NCBI GenBank assembly: GCA_965230895.1
Contig: OZ246394.1
Location: 29,723-93,722, forward strand
Direction: 5' to 3'
DNA length: 64,000 nt
Origin: an uncultured Gammaproteobacteria bacterium
GTDB lineage: Bacteria; Patescibacteriota; Microgenomatia; Levybacterales; UBA12049
Within the stretch, counting starts at the first letter, position 1. The number at the start of each line of letters is the position of its first letter. The position numbers were made by a program. Below are positions 33,001 to 39,000 of the stretch, in pieces.

Positions 33001-36000
33001 ACAATTACCGTTCTCATGCAAGGCTAAATGTGGTAAAATACGCCTTTATGGAACTTGATAGAAGAGGTTTTGATAATGGAAAACCAGTAGGTAATGAAAC
33101 ACAGGGTTCATTTGGTCCCGGAAGTTCTGAATCCGTACCGGCAAGAACTCGGAAAGTTGTTTCCCCTGATAAAGTTGCAGGAAGAAACCGTCCAACTCCA
33201 GTGAGAAGACCTGTGGATCAAACTCCCCAAGAAACCCCAAGAGCATTTTTCAATATTGCGGAAAGATTAGGCTATCTTAGCCCTGAAGTTTGTTCTCTGC
33301 AGAGGGCACTTGATGCTGAGACCATTGACGTCGAACCAGATGGTGATGAAACAACTCCAGTACCGACAGCCTTAGACAATGTTATTGATCGGTTGGGCGG
33401 AGCGTTTACATTTGAAGCGCAGGCATTGCAGAGAGCAATGCTTCCTTCCGTGCCTGAACCTCCTGCACTTCCTGTAGCACCGAGTTCCAATAGACCGGCA
33501 ATCGAAGCAGTTGTGGGTAGTTTGGGAGGGAGTGAAACACCTGAAGCACAAGCACTATGGCGAGCCAACGAAGCTTCTGTACTGAAACCAGAAAGTAATG
33601 CTGAGCAATTGCCATTGCCTGAACACGGTGTCGATAAAATTGCTCCATTTGTTCAGACACATGGAAAAATTCACCCATCAGGAAGCTACCATAGCAATGC
33701 GAGTTTTGAGAATATAGACTTATACGTCAATCCGAGTACAGGTGATTTTATCGTAGTTGGTAATCAGCGAGCAAGAACAAAGGAAGATGATCCCACTACT
33801 GACTATGTAATTATTGATCCAGGAACAGGTACTCCTATAGCAGAGCCTGCTCGAACAATATGGCGCGTTAGCGAGAATTGGGTTGATACAAATGTAGGTG
33901 ATGAACGGAAAATGAAAGTTGTGGCAGCAGAAGATGCGGAAGTTCCTAATTGGCAGGATCGATTAAGATTTACAGAACCATATAAAAGATTTGACATTAC
34001 AGAACAACTTCCTACTCTGACTCCAGACGCATTGGTTGATCTTGCTGGTAGCATGGTTACTGATGGTGTACAACCTCGACTTGCACTGCGAGGTGTCATT
34101 GACGATGCTCGTGCGCAAGGCCATCAACCAAAACCAACAACGCCTCTCCGAAGTGATTTCAAGAAGAGTACCTTAAACCAACCGGAATACGCTCGACTCA
34201 ATCAGGTGCGAGTGGGACTTAACGCAACAGTACGTTTAGTTTCTTCGCTTATTCCTCGATCCGTTTTAGAAATGGAACAGCAATCATCTATTACTGACGC
34301 GCTCAATTTTGCTGCAGACGGATTTAAGAAAGAAGATTTTGCTGATTACAGCTATTGGACCGATGATCCCAAAACTGTTACAAATGTAGATATTGAAGAC
34401 GCACGTAACGCAGTGCGTAGATCACATGGCGAACTTTGGCAGCCAGAATCTTCGCCTAAGCAAACTATCATTGAAAATTACTTTGAGTACCTTATCACCC
34501 AGGCTGAAGCAAATGGGGGATTCATCACTGCTGATAAGATAAATGCAAAATTACTCAGCAGTGGATAAGACTTTTTAATAGAAAAGTCTTATAGTTTGTG
34601 GTAAACTACACGTGATGCCAAATAATAGAGAATCATTTGAAGGTAAGCATCCTGCAGGAGACGTCAGTAGGTCCTTTGGTCCGACTACTCCCGACGGATC
34701 TCCACCACCGCTGAGAAGAATTGTTTCTCTTAATAAAGGAGAAAGAGGTGGGTCTGTATCCGCTATGGGTATTGATAATGGTAGTATTGATGTACCAGTG
34801 ACTCCCCAGTGGTGGAGACAGCCAAGTGCACAGAAAGAGAACGACATACAAGCCAATCCAGTTGTAGATTTTGCACTTAAGCATGTTGAATCAGTTGATG
34901 ATCTCCATGCTGAAACAGTCGAAGACGGTGCAAAGAAATTAGAATCAATAACGTCTTCAGCTCTTCGTAATATATCACTTGGAGAACCAGTAGGCGTAGG
35001 AGGTATATTTGATGTTCATACTATTCCTGGAGAACCTGACCTCGTTGTAAAACGCTTAAAAGCTCAGCAAGAATATGTAACTGTCGCTGAGGCAGACGAA
35101 GGGTTTGAAAAGCTTAGAGCGCAGCATCAAAAGTTTGTAGAAGCCTTCGGAGCTGATCACGTTCCTGCAACACAATTTGCAAAAATTGAGGATACGGATT
35201 TTGGAGATGCGCATAGGATAGCGCTTAATGGAGGAGAAAATGCCTTTTTTGCAGGGAGAGAATATGTAATGGTCCAAGAGAAATTGAGAGGTCTCCAATA
35301 TCAAGGAGTAACTGAGGATACTGAAGCCACCTTAAGAGATGCTGTGCAAGGATCAAGTGAAACAATGCGAGATCAAGTCAGAAGTTTTATCGAAAGATAT
35401 CGCCAATCACCGGTTCATCCTGATACAAATCAAGTTGTTTTTGATTTTACAGATGAGAAGGTCAGCATTGTAGACACCAATGCACCTTCTTCTACTACTT
35501 ATTACACTCACTTAAATTCCTATCTGCAAAAACTGGATATTGATCCAGCAAGTATAGTAAGTCAACAGCAATTAGCAGATGTAGTAATTGCAAATGTTCC
35601 TGAATTTGCGCATTTACAAGGAAGACCATGGGTCGAAATACGAGATATACTTCGCCCACGGTCAAGCCTACCCGCTAAAGCAGAAGCCGCAATCAATAAA
35701 AAATACAAACATGAAGGACCTGGCTCTGAGGGGTATGGTGACGATATGAATTTCTTATTGAGCGGGCTTGAAGATTTTCCGCCAGAGGGTGATAACAGAT
35801 ATGTTAGGACGTTAATTGATATATTTAGACTTTAAGATTGTAATTTGTGATCATCTTTATTATCATTCATCAATGTTCTATGCTTGATATACTTAGCTCA
35901 TGAAAAATTATAGTTACGCATACCTCTCCAGATTGGAACGCAATTACCTCCATTTAGCTCTTAAAAAATACTTGGCTGGAATGATGTCAAGTTCAATTAT

Positions 36001-39000
36001 TTAAACCAGCAGATATTATTCCCAGCTATTGATAATTTCATCCTTAAAGATATATTAGAAATCGTGTAAAGGTAACCCAAATTGACTAGAAATATCTTAT
36101 AGTTTGTGATAAACTATAGTATGGCTATTGGAGAATCTTTTGATAGTAGAAGACCCTCAAATGGTGAGACAGGCGGAAGATCATTTAGTGCGTCTATTCC
36201 AGAGGGGACACCTCCACCTTTGCGAAAAGTTGTATCGCCTGATACACGAGGAACTGGTGGGATTTCCCATGCTGCAAGACGTGTTGTGCCTCTTCCATCT
36301 CCTGACAGAGGTTATACACGGAAACATACAATACCTGCAGAAATTTCCGGAAGTGATATTACTGTTCCTGTTATTCCAACTACAGATACTTCGCCTCCAG
36401 ATCCCAAGCCCCGTTATGTACAAGAAAGAGAATTAGGTCATACTGTTACGTCAGTTCGTAAAGATGCCCAAGCCGTTGCAAGGGGAGTAGTCAGAGGAGT
36501 TGATCCAGAGAATGAAATGGGAGCAGCTGAAAGAACGAAATTATTCAATGATGAATGGAAGAAGATAGCAAGACAGAATGATGGTTTTGTTCAAGCCAGA
36601 GATACTTTAGCAGCTGGCCGTAGTGATGCTGCTCAGTTTACAGCCCATACTCACGCTTTTGATCCAGATACGCGTCCTGATCTCGAACAAGCTGCATCGC
36701 TTGGCGTATTACAAGCTGCTGAGAATTTCGATCCTGAGCGGTCTCAAAACTTTTTTATGCTTGCTTCTTTATCAGCTCAAAGTGAAGTTAACAGTGTCAT
36801 AAGAGGACAGCATCCCATCCATGTACCTCAACATGTTTTCCCAGAAAGAAAACAAGTACATACCGTAAATGATGTTTTAACACAAGAGCTACAAAGAGAA
36901 CCGACTGCACAAGAGATTGCAGAGAGAATGCATGAAGGATCTGATACTGATATCGATCCTGAGCGTGTAAGGTTATTGCTTCATTCTCCGGTATTTGATA
37001 GACATTTAATTCCTATTGGGACGAGTGATGTAACTGAAGGTTATCCAGTAGTTGATGAGGAGACTTTGCCGGATCAAGGCCGCCCAGTTGAAGACCACGC
37101 ACTTGATCAAGTGGAACTGCAGGGATTGATCGACAATGCTGGACTAACAGAGACAGAGGCATATGTACTTTTTCAACGATACGGGGAAGATCGGGAGAAT
37201 GGAGATATTGGTCAAGAATTATTTTATACTCCCCAAAGTATATCTCTAATTTCTCATGTAGCATTAGCAAAAATTAGAAACGCTGCAGGAATTCGACCTG
37301 ATGAAGAATCTTCTCGTAAAGGACAGCCTGCATCCTCAGCAGTCCTACAACGGAGAGCAGAATATTTACAACAAATGCGAGAACTACTCGATCCAGAAGA
37401 TCCAAAACCAAATGTGAAAGAATTAGCTGAGCAATTAGGAGTTTCTTTACGGACAGCATATAACTATTTAAATGAAATTAGGAGAGATCAATAACTCATT
37501 TTAGAGTCTTATAGTTTGTGTTAAAATAGCCTATGGCAATAAATAGAGAATTTGATGGGAGAACTCCAATCGGAGGAGCTGAAAGAACTTTTAGCTCGGG
37601 CGTGGAGGGTGCACCACCGCCAGTACAAAGAATTGTTTCTTTACCGCAAGATGGCGCTGTCCGTGGGCGTCAGGAGCGAGAAGGTTTTTCATTTACGACA
37701 GTTACTGTGGCAGATGCTCAAAATAAAACCTTATTTCGTGGCAAGATGGCACCTATTCAATGGCAAGAACCTCAGCATACTGCAGCAGTACACACAACGC
37801 ATCCTGAAATAATGGCTTCAGTCTTTGCTGAAGGTCCTGCTGCTTTTGACAAGCTTGATACAGATGGAGTGTTGCAAGTAACGTCTGCGGATAGTCATGT
37901 CTTGCGTAGTTTTTGGTACGACAGTGATCGGCAGCTCGTGACAGTAGCTCGCGGGGTAGTTTTTTTCAGAGAAAAGATGGCTGAAGAAGATGTTGCGCCA
38001 ATTGAATTACCGTCTCCTCCAAAAGGAAGTTCTAATTCTCCTATTGAGATGAGTTCTGCCGTGGAATTTGAATTTAAAGAATCACCCCTATATAGAAAAA
38101 ATCCAAGGATACAACAATCCTTTGCTACATTGGGATTTGATATGGACGAAGCTCGAAGAATATTTCCAACACCCAAGAGTTTTGCTGCAACGTTAGACCA
38201 GCTTCGAGAGGCTGATACTTCAGGTCTTTATTATCCTGAAGTATCACTATTGCCAGTAAGCCAGATTGATGCGAAGCCTTATCTTGAATCCTATGCAGCG
38301 GGGAAGCATCCTGTCGGTACTCATGGTTTTTATCATTACACACATGATACATCTTCTGATCACGCTGGGACGCTTATGACATTTGGCAAAAATATGATGG
38401 ATCTTATCCAAGGATATTCTCAAGTCATTTTGGAACGAAGAGGTGATACAGTAACATTTGCAGATACAGAACCTATAGATATGTTTACTGGTTTGGCGGG
38501 GCTTGAGGATTTAGATGATATAAATAACATAGTTCCTCATCGTATCGTGCGCGCTCTAGAGGATGCTGATCGTTTAAAATCCACGAAGATAGCTCAATGG
38601 ATGCATGCAAAGGGTATGATCCATCGTTGGGATGAGCTTACCCCAGAAGTCCTTTCTCAAGGGCTTCGCGCGGAAGCAAAAGCGAGATTACATGATTACA
38701 ATAATGGAAGAAGATGAGCTATCGGAGCTTTGTTTTCGAAGCAAGAATTGATATACTTAGTTCATGAAAATTATTGTTACGCATACCTCTCCTGACTGGG
38801 ACGCAATTACTTCCGTTTGGCTTCTTAAGAAATATCTTGCTGGTTGGAATGATGCTGAAGTTCGATTCGTGCCAGCAGGGAATAGACTGTCCGGACAGCC
38901 AGATCCATCAACGACCAAACACAAAGGTGAAGATCCGATTGAACGAATTGGTGATGATGAGATTATCCACGTTGATACAGGACTTCTTCCATTAGACCAT

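What the first reader, a model, noticed from the sequence alone, without database searches (positions are those of the whole stretch)
35884..36030. Decayed duplicate of the DHH gene 5' end inside the island marks a former island/chromosome junction
Seen: 35884-36030 aligns with 38748-38890, which covers 16 nt upstream plus the first roughly 125 nt of the intact DHH gene. Identity is about 85-90 percent with frameshifting indels. MKNYSYAYLSRLERNYLHLALKKYLAGMMSSSII* compares with MKIIVTHTSPDWDAITSVWLLKKYLAGWNDAEVRF. The last two island genes therefore sit between an old and a current copy of the same junction. These are the RpoD-like sigma (36121-37494) and the gene 12 paralog (37533-38717). This is the footprint expected if a module integrated at, and regenerated, the 5' end of the DHH gene. 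It could also arise from a junction-spanning duplication followed by decay. It shows the island grows stepwise at this site, although no integrase is present in the window.
Basis: seen in the sequence. Interest (0 to 1): 0.7.

Follow-up and report, generated by a model that had tools for sequence, protein, structure and literature searches.

The report
Dead DHH gene start inside island
A 130-base broken copy of the start of a conserved housekeeping gene (a DHH-family gene), promoter included, lies 2.9 kb upstream of the working gene in an uncultured Levybacteria genome and most likely marks where two genes were once spliced onto a fast-changing gene island; this is a real but fairly ordinary recombination scar.

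Summary
Window 35884-36013 is a decayed direct copy of 38748-38878. It covers the -10 promoter box, the ATG and the first 38 codons of the intact DHH gene. Identity is 88% over 125 aligned bases, with about six indels and an in-frame stop. Independent assemblies reproduce it exactly.

About 175 related loci show no second such copy. In most Levybacteria, proS lies 0.3-3.7 kb upstream of DHH. This window carries a 28.7-kb island of orphan genes there, inserted inside the old DHH promoter. The -35 box (9997-10002) stayed at the island's left end and the -10 box (38752-38757) at its right end. The copy's homology starts at -16, which falls on that junction, so reading it as a former island/core junction is well supported.

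The most likely origin is integrase-free recombination anchored in DHH. A variant haplotype ending in sigma-like gene, gene 37533 and DHH start was joined at DHH base +115, displacing the resident gene start. A tandem duplication is rejected, because the flanking gene bodies are unrelated. No recombinase was detected. Only one growth step is documented, so "stepwise growth" is not shown as a rule.

More unusual is that all 15 island genes checked share a genome-specific N-terminal leader of about 45 residues, and each + strand gene has its own leaderless-type promoter.

The parts
35884..36013 (+). Decayed copy of the DHH gene start (-16 to +115). It keeps the extended -10 box (TG at 35885-35886, TATACT at 35888-35893) and the ATG at 35900. 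It has frameshifts and an in-frame stop.
35900..36004 (+). Residual 34-codon ORF of the dead copy (MKNYSYAYLSRLERNYLHLALKKYLAGMMSSSII). It has no counterpart elsewhere.
35814..35828 (+). 15-base trace AATTGATATATTTAG inside the last codons of gene 34615-35835. It matches -18 to -4 of the intact DHH promoter with one mismatch. It may be an older junction trace and remains unexplained.
   Evidence: The 13-mer occurs 3 times in the window, all at these sites, against 0.26 expected.
34615..35835 (+). Orphan island gene (406 aa) with the shared N-terminal leader. It is inferred to have been the last island gene before the two-gene module was added.
36014..36120 (+). Start of the inserted module. 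Bases 36014-36081 match nothing else. Bases 36082-36116 are the promoter block shared with genes 34615 and 37533 (TGaTAAACT five bases before the ATG).
   Evidence: repeat family D4: 86% and 74% identity
36121..37494 (+). Sigma-70 family protein (regions 2-4, C-terminal HTH_11) with the island leader at its N-terminus.
37533..38717 (+). Orphan island gene (394 aa) with the leader. It is a paralogue of 28827-30128 (28% identity, E = 1.5e-39).
38748..38763 (+). Current DHH core promoter: the extended -10 box TGaTATACT (TATACT at 38752-38757), six bases before the ATG. The TATAC motif is conserved across most Levybacteria. This is the right island/core junction.
38764..39672 (+). Intact DHH-family gene (302 aa), a conserved core gene. 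It has 1616 homologues at E <= 1e-10, and the best 120 listed are 68-89% identical.
9997..10006 (+). TTGTCAAGGG, the -35 box of the ancestral DHH promoter, left behind at the left end of the island next to the minus-strand gene 9193-9990.
   Evidence: Island-free relatives read TTGTCA, then a spacer of about 14-18 bases (17 in L017), then TATACT.
10007..38747 (+). The 28.7-kb island of orphan genes lying inside the old DHH promoter spacer. It is absent from most Levybacteria.

Best explanation
The 130-base segment 35884-36013 is the displaced, now dead, original start of the DHH gene.

An earlier form of this chromosome ended its island with gene 34615-35835, followed about 64 bases later by DHH. 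DNA from a sibling haplotype of the same lineage then recombined with it. In that haplotype the island ended with the sigma-like gene, gene 37533 and DHH.

One end of the exchange was held by homology within DHH. The other end was joined illegitimately at DHH base +115. This could be homology-facilitated illegitimate recombination, break repair copied from the variant, or equivalently a single crossover with a circularised fragment.

The result is what is seen today. It reads: old promoter plus codons 1-38, then 2.73 kb of new DNA (36014-38747), then a complete DHH with the incoming promoter-proximal sequence. The left-behind fragment has since gained about 15 substitutions, about six indels and a stop codon.

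Shown: the duplication, its limits, its decay, the junction position, the empty site in relatives, and the lack of a recombinase domain. Inferred: the existence of the two haplotypes, the direction of the event and the recombination pathway.
For: - **Extent and significance of the repeat:**
- **Within-lineage origin:** the copy is nearest to its own genome's intact DHH (88% against at most 83% for any other genome), with shared derived bases.
- **Junction position:** the -35 box is at 9997-10002 and the -10 box at 38752-38757. Nucleotide homology to six other genomes starts at 38747-38752. The repeat starts at 38748.
- **Spacing:** the gap from the stop of gene 34615 to the dead ATG is 64 bases, close to the 42-55 bases seen between the last island gene and DHH in seven genomes.
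- **The module is not foreign:** its two genes share the island's promoter block and leader, and their leaders are the closest relatives of gene 34615's leader. The donor was therefore a sibling island.
- **No recombinase:** no integrase, transposase or other recombinase domain was found in the 54 window ORFs scanned against Pfam. The module genes and most of the other orphan island genes also gave none against PHROGs and NCBIfam.
- **Co-orientation and adjacency** are required by this model and are observed.
- **Precedent:** the same logic, a homologous anchor plus an illegitimate end with old gene pieces pushed aside, is proposed for T6SS effector-immunity arrays and Rhs loci (PMC5361080). 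The pathway is summarised in the abstract of PMC3240628.
Against: - Neither postulated haplotype has been seen. That means gene 34615 directly followed by an intact DHH, or a donor lacking the dead copy. All contigs recovered from at least ten sequencing runs are 100% identical to the window.
- The module genes have no homologues anywhere else.
- The two junction copies share nothing upstream of -16. Two haplotypes must therefore have had different island DNA right up to the same few bases.
- No microhomology is evident at the +115 joint.
- Only one remnant exists.
- Competence or end-joining genes could not be checked, because only 64 kb of the 1.61-Mb contig is available.
Confidence: 0.55

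Rival explanations
1. Paste-in of a short copy. The sigma-like gene and gene 37533 were always between gene 34615 and DHH. A 131-base copy of the DHH start was later inserted into the 34615-sigma spacer by template switching or patch repair of a break. No genes were gained and the copy never was a junction.
For: The final structure is identical to the one observed. The flanks of the copy (48 + 107 = 155 bases) together fall within the range of island spacers (2-158 bases, from the gene coordinates). No donor haplotype needs to be postulated, and none was found.
Against: The left end of the copy (-16) would fall by chance inside the 17-base interval that holds the island/core junction, roughly a 1 in 15 coincidence. 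The dead ATG sits at a junction-like distance from the preceding stop codon. Dispersed 130-base copies of this kind are rare in bacteria (background knowledge). It does not explain the extra 15-base trace at 35814-35828.
Confidence: 0.17
2. Site-specific integration. The segment 36014-38747 plus a substitute DHH start is a small integrative module, inserted by a recombinase encoded elsewhere. The two repeat copies are attL and attR, as in prophages that carry a replacement end for their target gene.
For: Direct repeats of a gene end flank the segment and the gene is regenerated. TTGATATAYTTAG occurs three times in the window, only here and in direct orientation.
Against: No integrase was found in the module or in the window ORFs scanned. 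The module genes carry the island's own promoter and leader, so it is not a foreign self-contained element. No second copy was found at about 175 other DHH loci. Junction points differ between genomes: L014 and L094 keep a -35 box on the DHH side, so there is no common att site. No contig shows an empty site or a circular junction.
Confidence: 0.1
3. Tandem duplication. A segment running from inside the island to DHH +115 was duplicated head to tail, and the first copy then diverged or was partly deleted.
For: The two units have similar layouts and sizes. Gene 34615 plus the dead copy spans 1440 bases and gene 37533 plus the DHH start spans 1385 bases. The promoter blocks are 74-86% identical.
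Against: Outside the 5' module of about 180 bases, the gene bodies show no similarity at the protein or DNA level. The non-coding dead copy is still 88% identical, so the bodies cannot have diverged beyond recognition in the same time. Gene 37533 is instead a full-length paralogue of 28827-30128.
Confidence: 0.06
4. Retained for a function. The fragment persists because its intact promoter and ATG still fire. They could add transcription into the sigma-like gene or produce a 34-residue peptide. This can be layered on any origin model.
For: The extended -10 box, the spacing and the ATG are intact. 13 of 13 promoter bases (TTGATATACTTAG) and 15 of the 16 upstream bases are identical to the live copy. 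No terminator-like site lies between the fragment and the sigma-like gene. 29 of 54 ORFs in the window have a -10-like hexamer starting 10-16 bases before the start codon, and only 5 have a Shine-Dalgarno-like motif, so a leaderless start here is plausible.
Against: The sigma-like gene has its own promoter 5 bases before its ATG. The 226-base region shows no unusual RNA structure (z = -0.18) and no Rfam family. The peptide is found nowhere else. The frame is scrambled relative to DHH.
Confidence: 0.12

Closest known systems
Sequential displacement arrays at Rhs, CDI and type VI secretion effector-immunity loci (Kirchberger et al. 2017, PMC5361080; Rhs C-terminal displacement, Jackson et al. 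2009, as cited there)
   Same: A conserved stretch next to a variable region acts as the homologous anchor. Incoming modules are thought to be joined illegitimately at the other end without an integrase. Older gene pieces are pushed aside and kept as orphans that may retain part of the anchor.
   Different: Here the anchor is a housekeeping gene downstream of the variable region, so a gene start is displaced upstream rather than a gene end downstream. Only one orphan fragment exists, not a string of them. No toxin or immunity domains were detected.
Homology-facilitated illegitimate recombination in transformable bacteria and in E. coli conjugation (PMC3240628 abstract; de Vries and Wackernagel 2002, Prudhomme et al. 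2002, Meier and Wackernagel 2003, as cited in PMC5361080)
   Same: Integration with one homologous end and one illegitimate end would produce exactly this layout if the illegitimate joint fell inside the anchor gene.
   Different: The pathway is inferred, not demonstrated. No microhomology is visible at the joint. DNA uptake and repair genes of this organism were not examined.
Prophages that integrate inside a gene and carry a substitute gene end, such as phage 21 and e14 in E. coli icd
   Same: The target gene stays intact because the incoming DNA supplies a replacement end. The displaced original end remains as a dead partial copy at the far border. The substitute-end detail is from my own knowledge; the papers read here confirm only that these prophages integrate in icd (PMC12803456).
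   Different: Those elements encode their own integrase and replace the 3' end. Here the 5' end with its promoter is replaced, the segment is 2.9 kb with no recombinase, and its genes belong to the resident island family.
Integron cassette arrays
   Same: New genes are added next to a fixed point, pushing older ones away. The genes are all co-oriented.
   Different: There is no IntI-type integrase. No attC-like inverted repeats were found (no inverted repeat of 30 bases or more in 7000-41000). Each + strand gene in the array has its own promoter.

Membership tests
Pseudogene fragment of a DHH-family gene | Significant nucleotide homology to the parent gene | tested here: met
   E = 2e-29 by BLASTN. 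88% identity over 125 aligned bases. nhmmer E = 1.7e-16.
Pseudogene fragment of a DHH-family gene | Reading frame destroyed and gene truncated | tested here: met
   A +1 insertion at codon 2-3, further indels, and TGG changed to TAG at codon 19. Homology ends at codon 38 of 302.
Integrative element carrying a substitute gene end (phage 21 / e14 at icd type) | Direct repeat of the target-gene end at both borders, with the target gene left intact | tested here: met
   35884-36013 and 38748-38878 are direct repeats. DHH is full length and conserved.
Integrative element carrying a substitute gene end (phage 21 / e14 at icd type) | Integrase or recombinase encoded in the element | tested here: not met
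   The module holds only a sigma-like gene and an orphan gene. No recombinase domain was found in the 54 window ORFs scanned against Pfam, nor in the module and other island genes scanned against PHROGs and NCBIfam.
Integrative element carrying a substitute gene end (phage 21 / e14 at icd type) | Same attachment site used in related genomes; empty and occupied sites both seen | tested here: not met
   No second DHH start in about 175 loci. Island junction points differ between genomes. No empty-site or circular contigs.
Sequential displacement array (Rhs / type VI secretion effector-immunity type) | Conserved anchor sequence adjoining a variable region whose content differs between close relatives | tested here: met
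   The DHH side is collinear in all genomes. Upstream DNA is unrelated in every genome with DHH at least 84% identical.
Sequential displacement array (Rhs / type VI secretion effector-immunity type) | Orphaned fragment that retains part of the anchor | tested here: met
   The dead copy keeps -16 to +115 of the anchor gene.
Sequential displacement array (Rhs / type VI secretion effector-immunity type) | Strings of several successive orphans | tested here: not met
   One fragment plus a 15-base trace. A profile search found no other in the window.
Sequential displacement array (Rhs / type VI secretion effector-immunity type) | Toxin and immunity gene content | tested here: inconclusive
   No Pfam, NCBIfam or PHROGs domains apart from the sigma-70 family and HerA/TraD-like ATPase hits. 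The proteins are orphans. PADLOC was not run.
Integron | IntI integrase with an adjacent attI site and attC sites ending each cassette | tested here: not met
   No integrase (Pfam calls above). No inverted repeats of 30 bases or more in 7000-41000. The + strand island genes carry their own promoters.
Tandem segmental duplication | Sequence on the far side of each repeat copy is also paralogous | tested here: not met
   32991-35883 against 36001-38747 share only the 5' modules of about 180 bases.

The most novel reading that the evidence does not exclude
In one clade of Levybacteria, the promoter of a housekeeping DHH gene has become the docking point of an integrase-free, fast-turnover gene array. 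The array consists of orphan genes. Each + strand gene has its own leaderless-type promoter, and every gene checked has a lineage-specific N-terminal leader of about 45 residues. Even a sigma factor and a HerA/TraD-like ATPase carry the leader. New units would be added next to DHH by recombination anchored in the gene, and the dead DHH start is the one surviving footprint of that process. If so, this would be a new kind of tagged-protein system, with the leader acting as a sorting or loading signal, that has its own mode of growth.
Probability: 0.2. Interest if true: 0.65.

Novelty: new member of a known kind. Interest (0 to 1): 0.35.

Why it matters
Taken alone, the fragment is a recombination scar of a familiar type. 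Its value is as a dated marker. It shows that at least one two-gene addition to this island happened next to DHH with no recombinase detected in the window. It also fixes the island/core junction to within a few bases, inside the spacer of a promoter. That gives a concrete handle on how a 28.7-kb block of species-specific orphan genes is built in a small-genome, uncultured bacterium of the Candidate Phyla Radiation (CPR). It also points to the more interesting object, which is the island itself with its shared protein leader.

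Tried and rejected
- **Tandem duplication.** Rejected, because the gene bodies on either side share nothing beyond the common 5' module.
- **More remnants.** tblastn and a nucleotide profile of the DHH start were run over the window and about 175 related loci, covering 1.04 Mb of upstream DNA. No other remnant was found.
- **Extension of the copy past 36013.** Not significant.
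- **Homologues of the module.** Gene 37533 and the island ATPase match only themselves among 5.8 billion clusters. A profile of the shared leader against 1.84 billion representatives returned only 12 proteins, whose lengths match this window's genes.
- **Closer relatives.** A metagenome scan gave at best 78% DHH identity. Exact-protein look-ups found only clonal copies.
- **Structure of gene 37533.** Mean pLDDT was 36, which is unusable, so no fold search was run.
- **RNA element.** No Rfam family in the window. No unusual fold for 35900-36125 (z = -0.18).
- **Flanks of the copy.** 35836-35883 and 36014-36081 match nothing informative.
- **Codon-position pattern of the differences.** Roughly 7 of 12 substitutions fall at third codon positions (hand count on the alignments). 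This is too few to separate divergence before the event from decay after it.
- **Mobile-element hallmarks.** No tRNA genes, no recombinase domains, and no inverted repeats.

Full report
**The observation.** BLASTN of 35800-36120 against 38700-39000 returns one strong direct match. It aligns 35884-35998 with 38748-38867, with 102/121 identities, 7 gap columns and E = 2e-29. A gap-tolerant local alignment carries the match on to 36013 / 38878, ending in a shared CCAGCAG. Past that point the similarity is no better than shuffled sequence. A pairwise global alignment gives 110/125 = 88% identity with 11 gapped positions.

The segment corresponds to -16 to +115 of the gene 38764-39672. It contains the motif TTGATATACTTAG, the ATG and codons 1-38. 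It carries an extra A in codon 2-3, further 1- and 3-base indels, and TGG changed to TAG at codon 19. The same 501 bases (35700-36200) are 100% identical in four contigs, each from a different sequencing run, that span the region whole, and over the 340 bases held by a fifth. It is not an assembly artefact.

**Organism and surroundings.** The DHH protein has 1616 homologues at E <= 1e-10. The best are named Candidatus Levybacteria / Patescibacteria. One island protein matches an NCBI contig of 1.61 Mb exactly.

Downstream of DHH lie HIT, an alpha/beta hydrolase, S21, YbeY, DnaX, YbaB, a PRPP synthetase-type gene and RecR (the last two named from the gene calls of the collinear relatives). Upstream of the island lie RRF, an M50 protease, 6-phosphogluconolactonase, G6PD, 6PGD, ProRS and a minus-strand gene at 9193-9990.

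Locus L012 (DHH 78% identical) is collinear with window 50-9312 and with 38764-53849, and has nothing in between. In about 65 loci whose DHH is 78% identical or less, proS ends within 3.7 kb upstream of DHH, mostly 0.3-2 kb, with one outlier at 6.2 kb. In every locus with DHH at least 84% identical (L008-L011, L014, L015, L094-L096), no proS is seen in the available upstream DNA, which reaches up to 10 kb.

The upstream DNA of those close relatives is unrelated to the window. Nucleotide homology begins at window 38747-38752 in each comparison. The window therefore carries a 28.7-kb island at a site that is variable across a whole clade.

**Where exactly the island sits.** In nearly all Levybacteria, DHH is preceded by TATAC(T) six to eight bases before the ATG. 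In many island-free genomes there is also a TTGTCAAG box. In L017, for example, this box lies 17 bases upstream of the TATAC motif. This is a -35/-10 promoter feeding a leaderless message.

That reading fits the window as a whole. 29 of 54 ORFs have a TANNNT hexamer starting 10-16 bases before the start codon, and only 5 have a Shine-Dalgarno-like motif.

In the window, the -35 box (TTGTCAAGGG, 9997-10006) sits next to the minus-strand gene at the island's left end. The -10 box (38752-38757) sits at its right end. The island thus lies inside the spacer of the old promoter, and the island/core junction is somewhere between -29 and -13. The homology between the dead copy and the live gene begins at -16.

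**What the copy is.** It is closer to its own genome's DHH (88%) than to any other genome's (73-83%). The live 5' end is 77-86% identical to those other genomes. The copy shares derived states with the live gene: TTGA before the -10 box and the ACC codon. It therefore arose within this lineage.

It is unique. tblastn and a nucleotide profile were run over about 175 loci with an intact DHH start, covering 1.04 Mb of upstream DNA. No other second copy was found, and no further remnant was found in the window. It is therefore not a conserved small gene found elsewhere. Nor is it the routine signature of a family of integrating elements.

**How it arose.** A junction-spanning tandem duplication is ruled out. 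Comparison of 32991-35883 with 36001-38747 finds only the shared 5' modules, and the proteins show nothing beyond their first 40 or so residues. Meanwhile a non-coding fragment has stayed 88% identical.

Site-specific integration is unsupported for five reasons.
- No recombinase domain appears in any of the 54 window ORFs scanned against Pfam, nor in the module genes and most of the other orphan island genes scanned against PHROGs and NCBIfam.
- There are no tRNA genes.
- There are no inverted repeats of 30 bases or more.
- The two genes between the copies carry the same promoter block as gene 34615: CTTATAGTTTGTGnTAAAnT, 86% and 74% identical over 35 bases. Their leaders are also the most similar to gene 34615's. 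They belong to the resident island family.
- L014 and L094 keep a TTGACT -35 box on the DHH side although they carry islands. Junction points therefore differ between genomes and no common attachment site exists.

The layout that remains most economical is as follows. A chromosome whose island ended with gene 34615 recombined with a sibling haplotype whose island ended with the sigma-like gene and gene 37533. The exchange was anchored by DHH homology on one side and joined illegitimately at +115 on the other.

Two details favour this over a later paste-in of a 131-base copy. First, the copy's left limit falls on the island/core junction. Second, the dead ATG lies 64 bases after the stop of gene 34615, while the last island gene and DHH are 42-55 bases apart in seven genomes.

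The weakness is that neither postulated haplotype was observed. All recovered contigs are clonal, and the module genes have no relatives anywhere. I put this model at about 0.55. The rivals are paste-in at about 0.17, site-specific integration at about 0.10 and tandem duplication at about 0.06. Retention for a promoter or peptide function is an optional overlay at about 0.12.

**Comparison with known systems.** The closest described process is the sequential displacement proposed for type VI secretion effector-immunity arrays and Rhs loci. There, a conserved stretch anchors incoming DNA, the other end is joined illegitimately, and older pieces are pushed aside (PMC5361080). The recombination pathway is summarised in the abstract of PMC3240628.

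Here the geometry is mirrored, because a gene start is displaced upstream of a housekeeping anchor. Only one orphan piece exists. Prophages that replace the end of icd are a looser analogue. From the papers read I can confirm only that they integrate in icd. The substitute-end detail is from my own knowledge. Integron membership fails on integrase and attC.

**Function today.** The fragment keeps an intact extended -10 box, the correct spacing and the ATG, and no terminator-like site follows it. It may therefore still be transcribed into the sigma-like gene. That gene has its own promoter, however. The region has no unusual RNA structure and no Rfam match. I treat any function as unproven.

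**Unexplained.** A third copy of the promoter motif, AATTGATATATTTAG at 35814-35828, lies inside the last codons of gene 34615. The 13-mer occurs three times in 64 kb, all at these sites, against 0.26 expected. It may be the trace of an earlier event at the same junction, but only 55 bases separate it from the dead copy.

**Verdict.** The 'former junction' reading is well supported. 'Stepwise growth' is shown for one step only. An integrase-independent recombination is the likeliest cause. As a class of feature it is a new example of a known kind, and interest is moderate to low. The island itself deserves its own study. Its 15 leader-tagged orphan genes, the leaderless promoters of its + strand genes and its position inside a promoter spacer are the more unusual objects.

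Noticed in passing
window 15418-38717 (both strands): Fifteen island genes begin with a shared, non-hydrophobic N-terminal leader of about 45 residues (roughly M..E.F...P.....RSF....EG.PP...R.IVSP). They include a sigma-70 family protein, the minus-strand 487-aa gene, and a HerA/TraD-like ATPase whose true start is at 20401. A profile of the leader finds only 12 proteins, whose lengths match this window's genes, among 1.84 billion representatives.
   Followed up: partly
L011 62-9952; L008 395-9945; L014 1643-9955; L094 141-1565: Islands at the same site in related genomes hold unrelated genes. Several of these again share their own N-terminal motif: L011 has MAAEI..P......RPGG.SLD.....GLP.V.K, L014 and L008 have MTER.., and the L094 sigma-like gene has MAIESINTPPRR... 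This suggests a fast-evolving leader common to the clade.
   Followed up: partly
window 34574-34608, 36082-36116, 37494-37528: A 35-base promoter block (..TCTTATAGTTTGTGnTAAAnT) is shared by the three genes nearest DHH, at 86% and 74% identity. Leader similarity is also highest among the five DHH-proximal genes, giving a positional gradient.
   Followed up: partly
whole window: Gene starts look mostly leaderless. 29 of 54 ORFs have a TANNNT hexamer starting 10-16 bases before the start codon, often with an upstream TG. Only 5 of 54 have a Shine-Dalgarno-like motif.
   Followed up: partly
L081 about 9945-10000; L107 about 9942-10000: In two other Levybacteria, the conserved TATACTTAGC..ATGA promoter/start motif lies 43-57 bases upstream of the DHH ATG. 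Extra sequence follows it, and in L107 this contains a TGATCC...GGATCA inverted repeat. This looks like a small insertion between the promoter and the gene.
   Followed up: no
L095 2-2442; L096 2-1917: These two relatives have tiny, different islands. Each has one or two small plus-strand ORFs with Cys-rich tails (such as CPNASCPDSAC) next to a conserved minus-strand gene of 475-498 aa. This may be a peptide-modification cluster.
   Followed up: no
window 30131-31156 and 62979-63761: One island gene has a paralogue outside the island, 30% identical over about 200 residues with E about 1e-20.
   Followed up: no
window 7960-9192: The prolyl-tRNA synthetase ORF is 410 aa and shows no editing domain. 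The L012 orthologue is 567 aa and has a tRNA_edit domain.
   Followed up: no
window 40156-41217 (minus strand): An alpha/beta hydrolase gene between HIT and S21 is present here and in L008, L014 and L094. It is absent in L010/L011, L012, L095 and L096. This is a second small presence/absence difference close to DHH.
   Followed up: no
window 26912-27066: Internal 36- and 72-base-spaced direct repeats lie within the 931-aa island gene 25038-27833, pointing to a repetitive protein segment (family D2).
   Followed up: no
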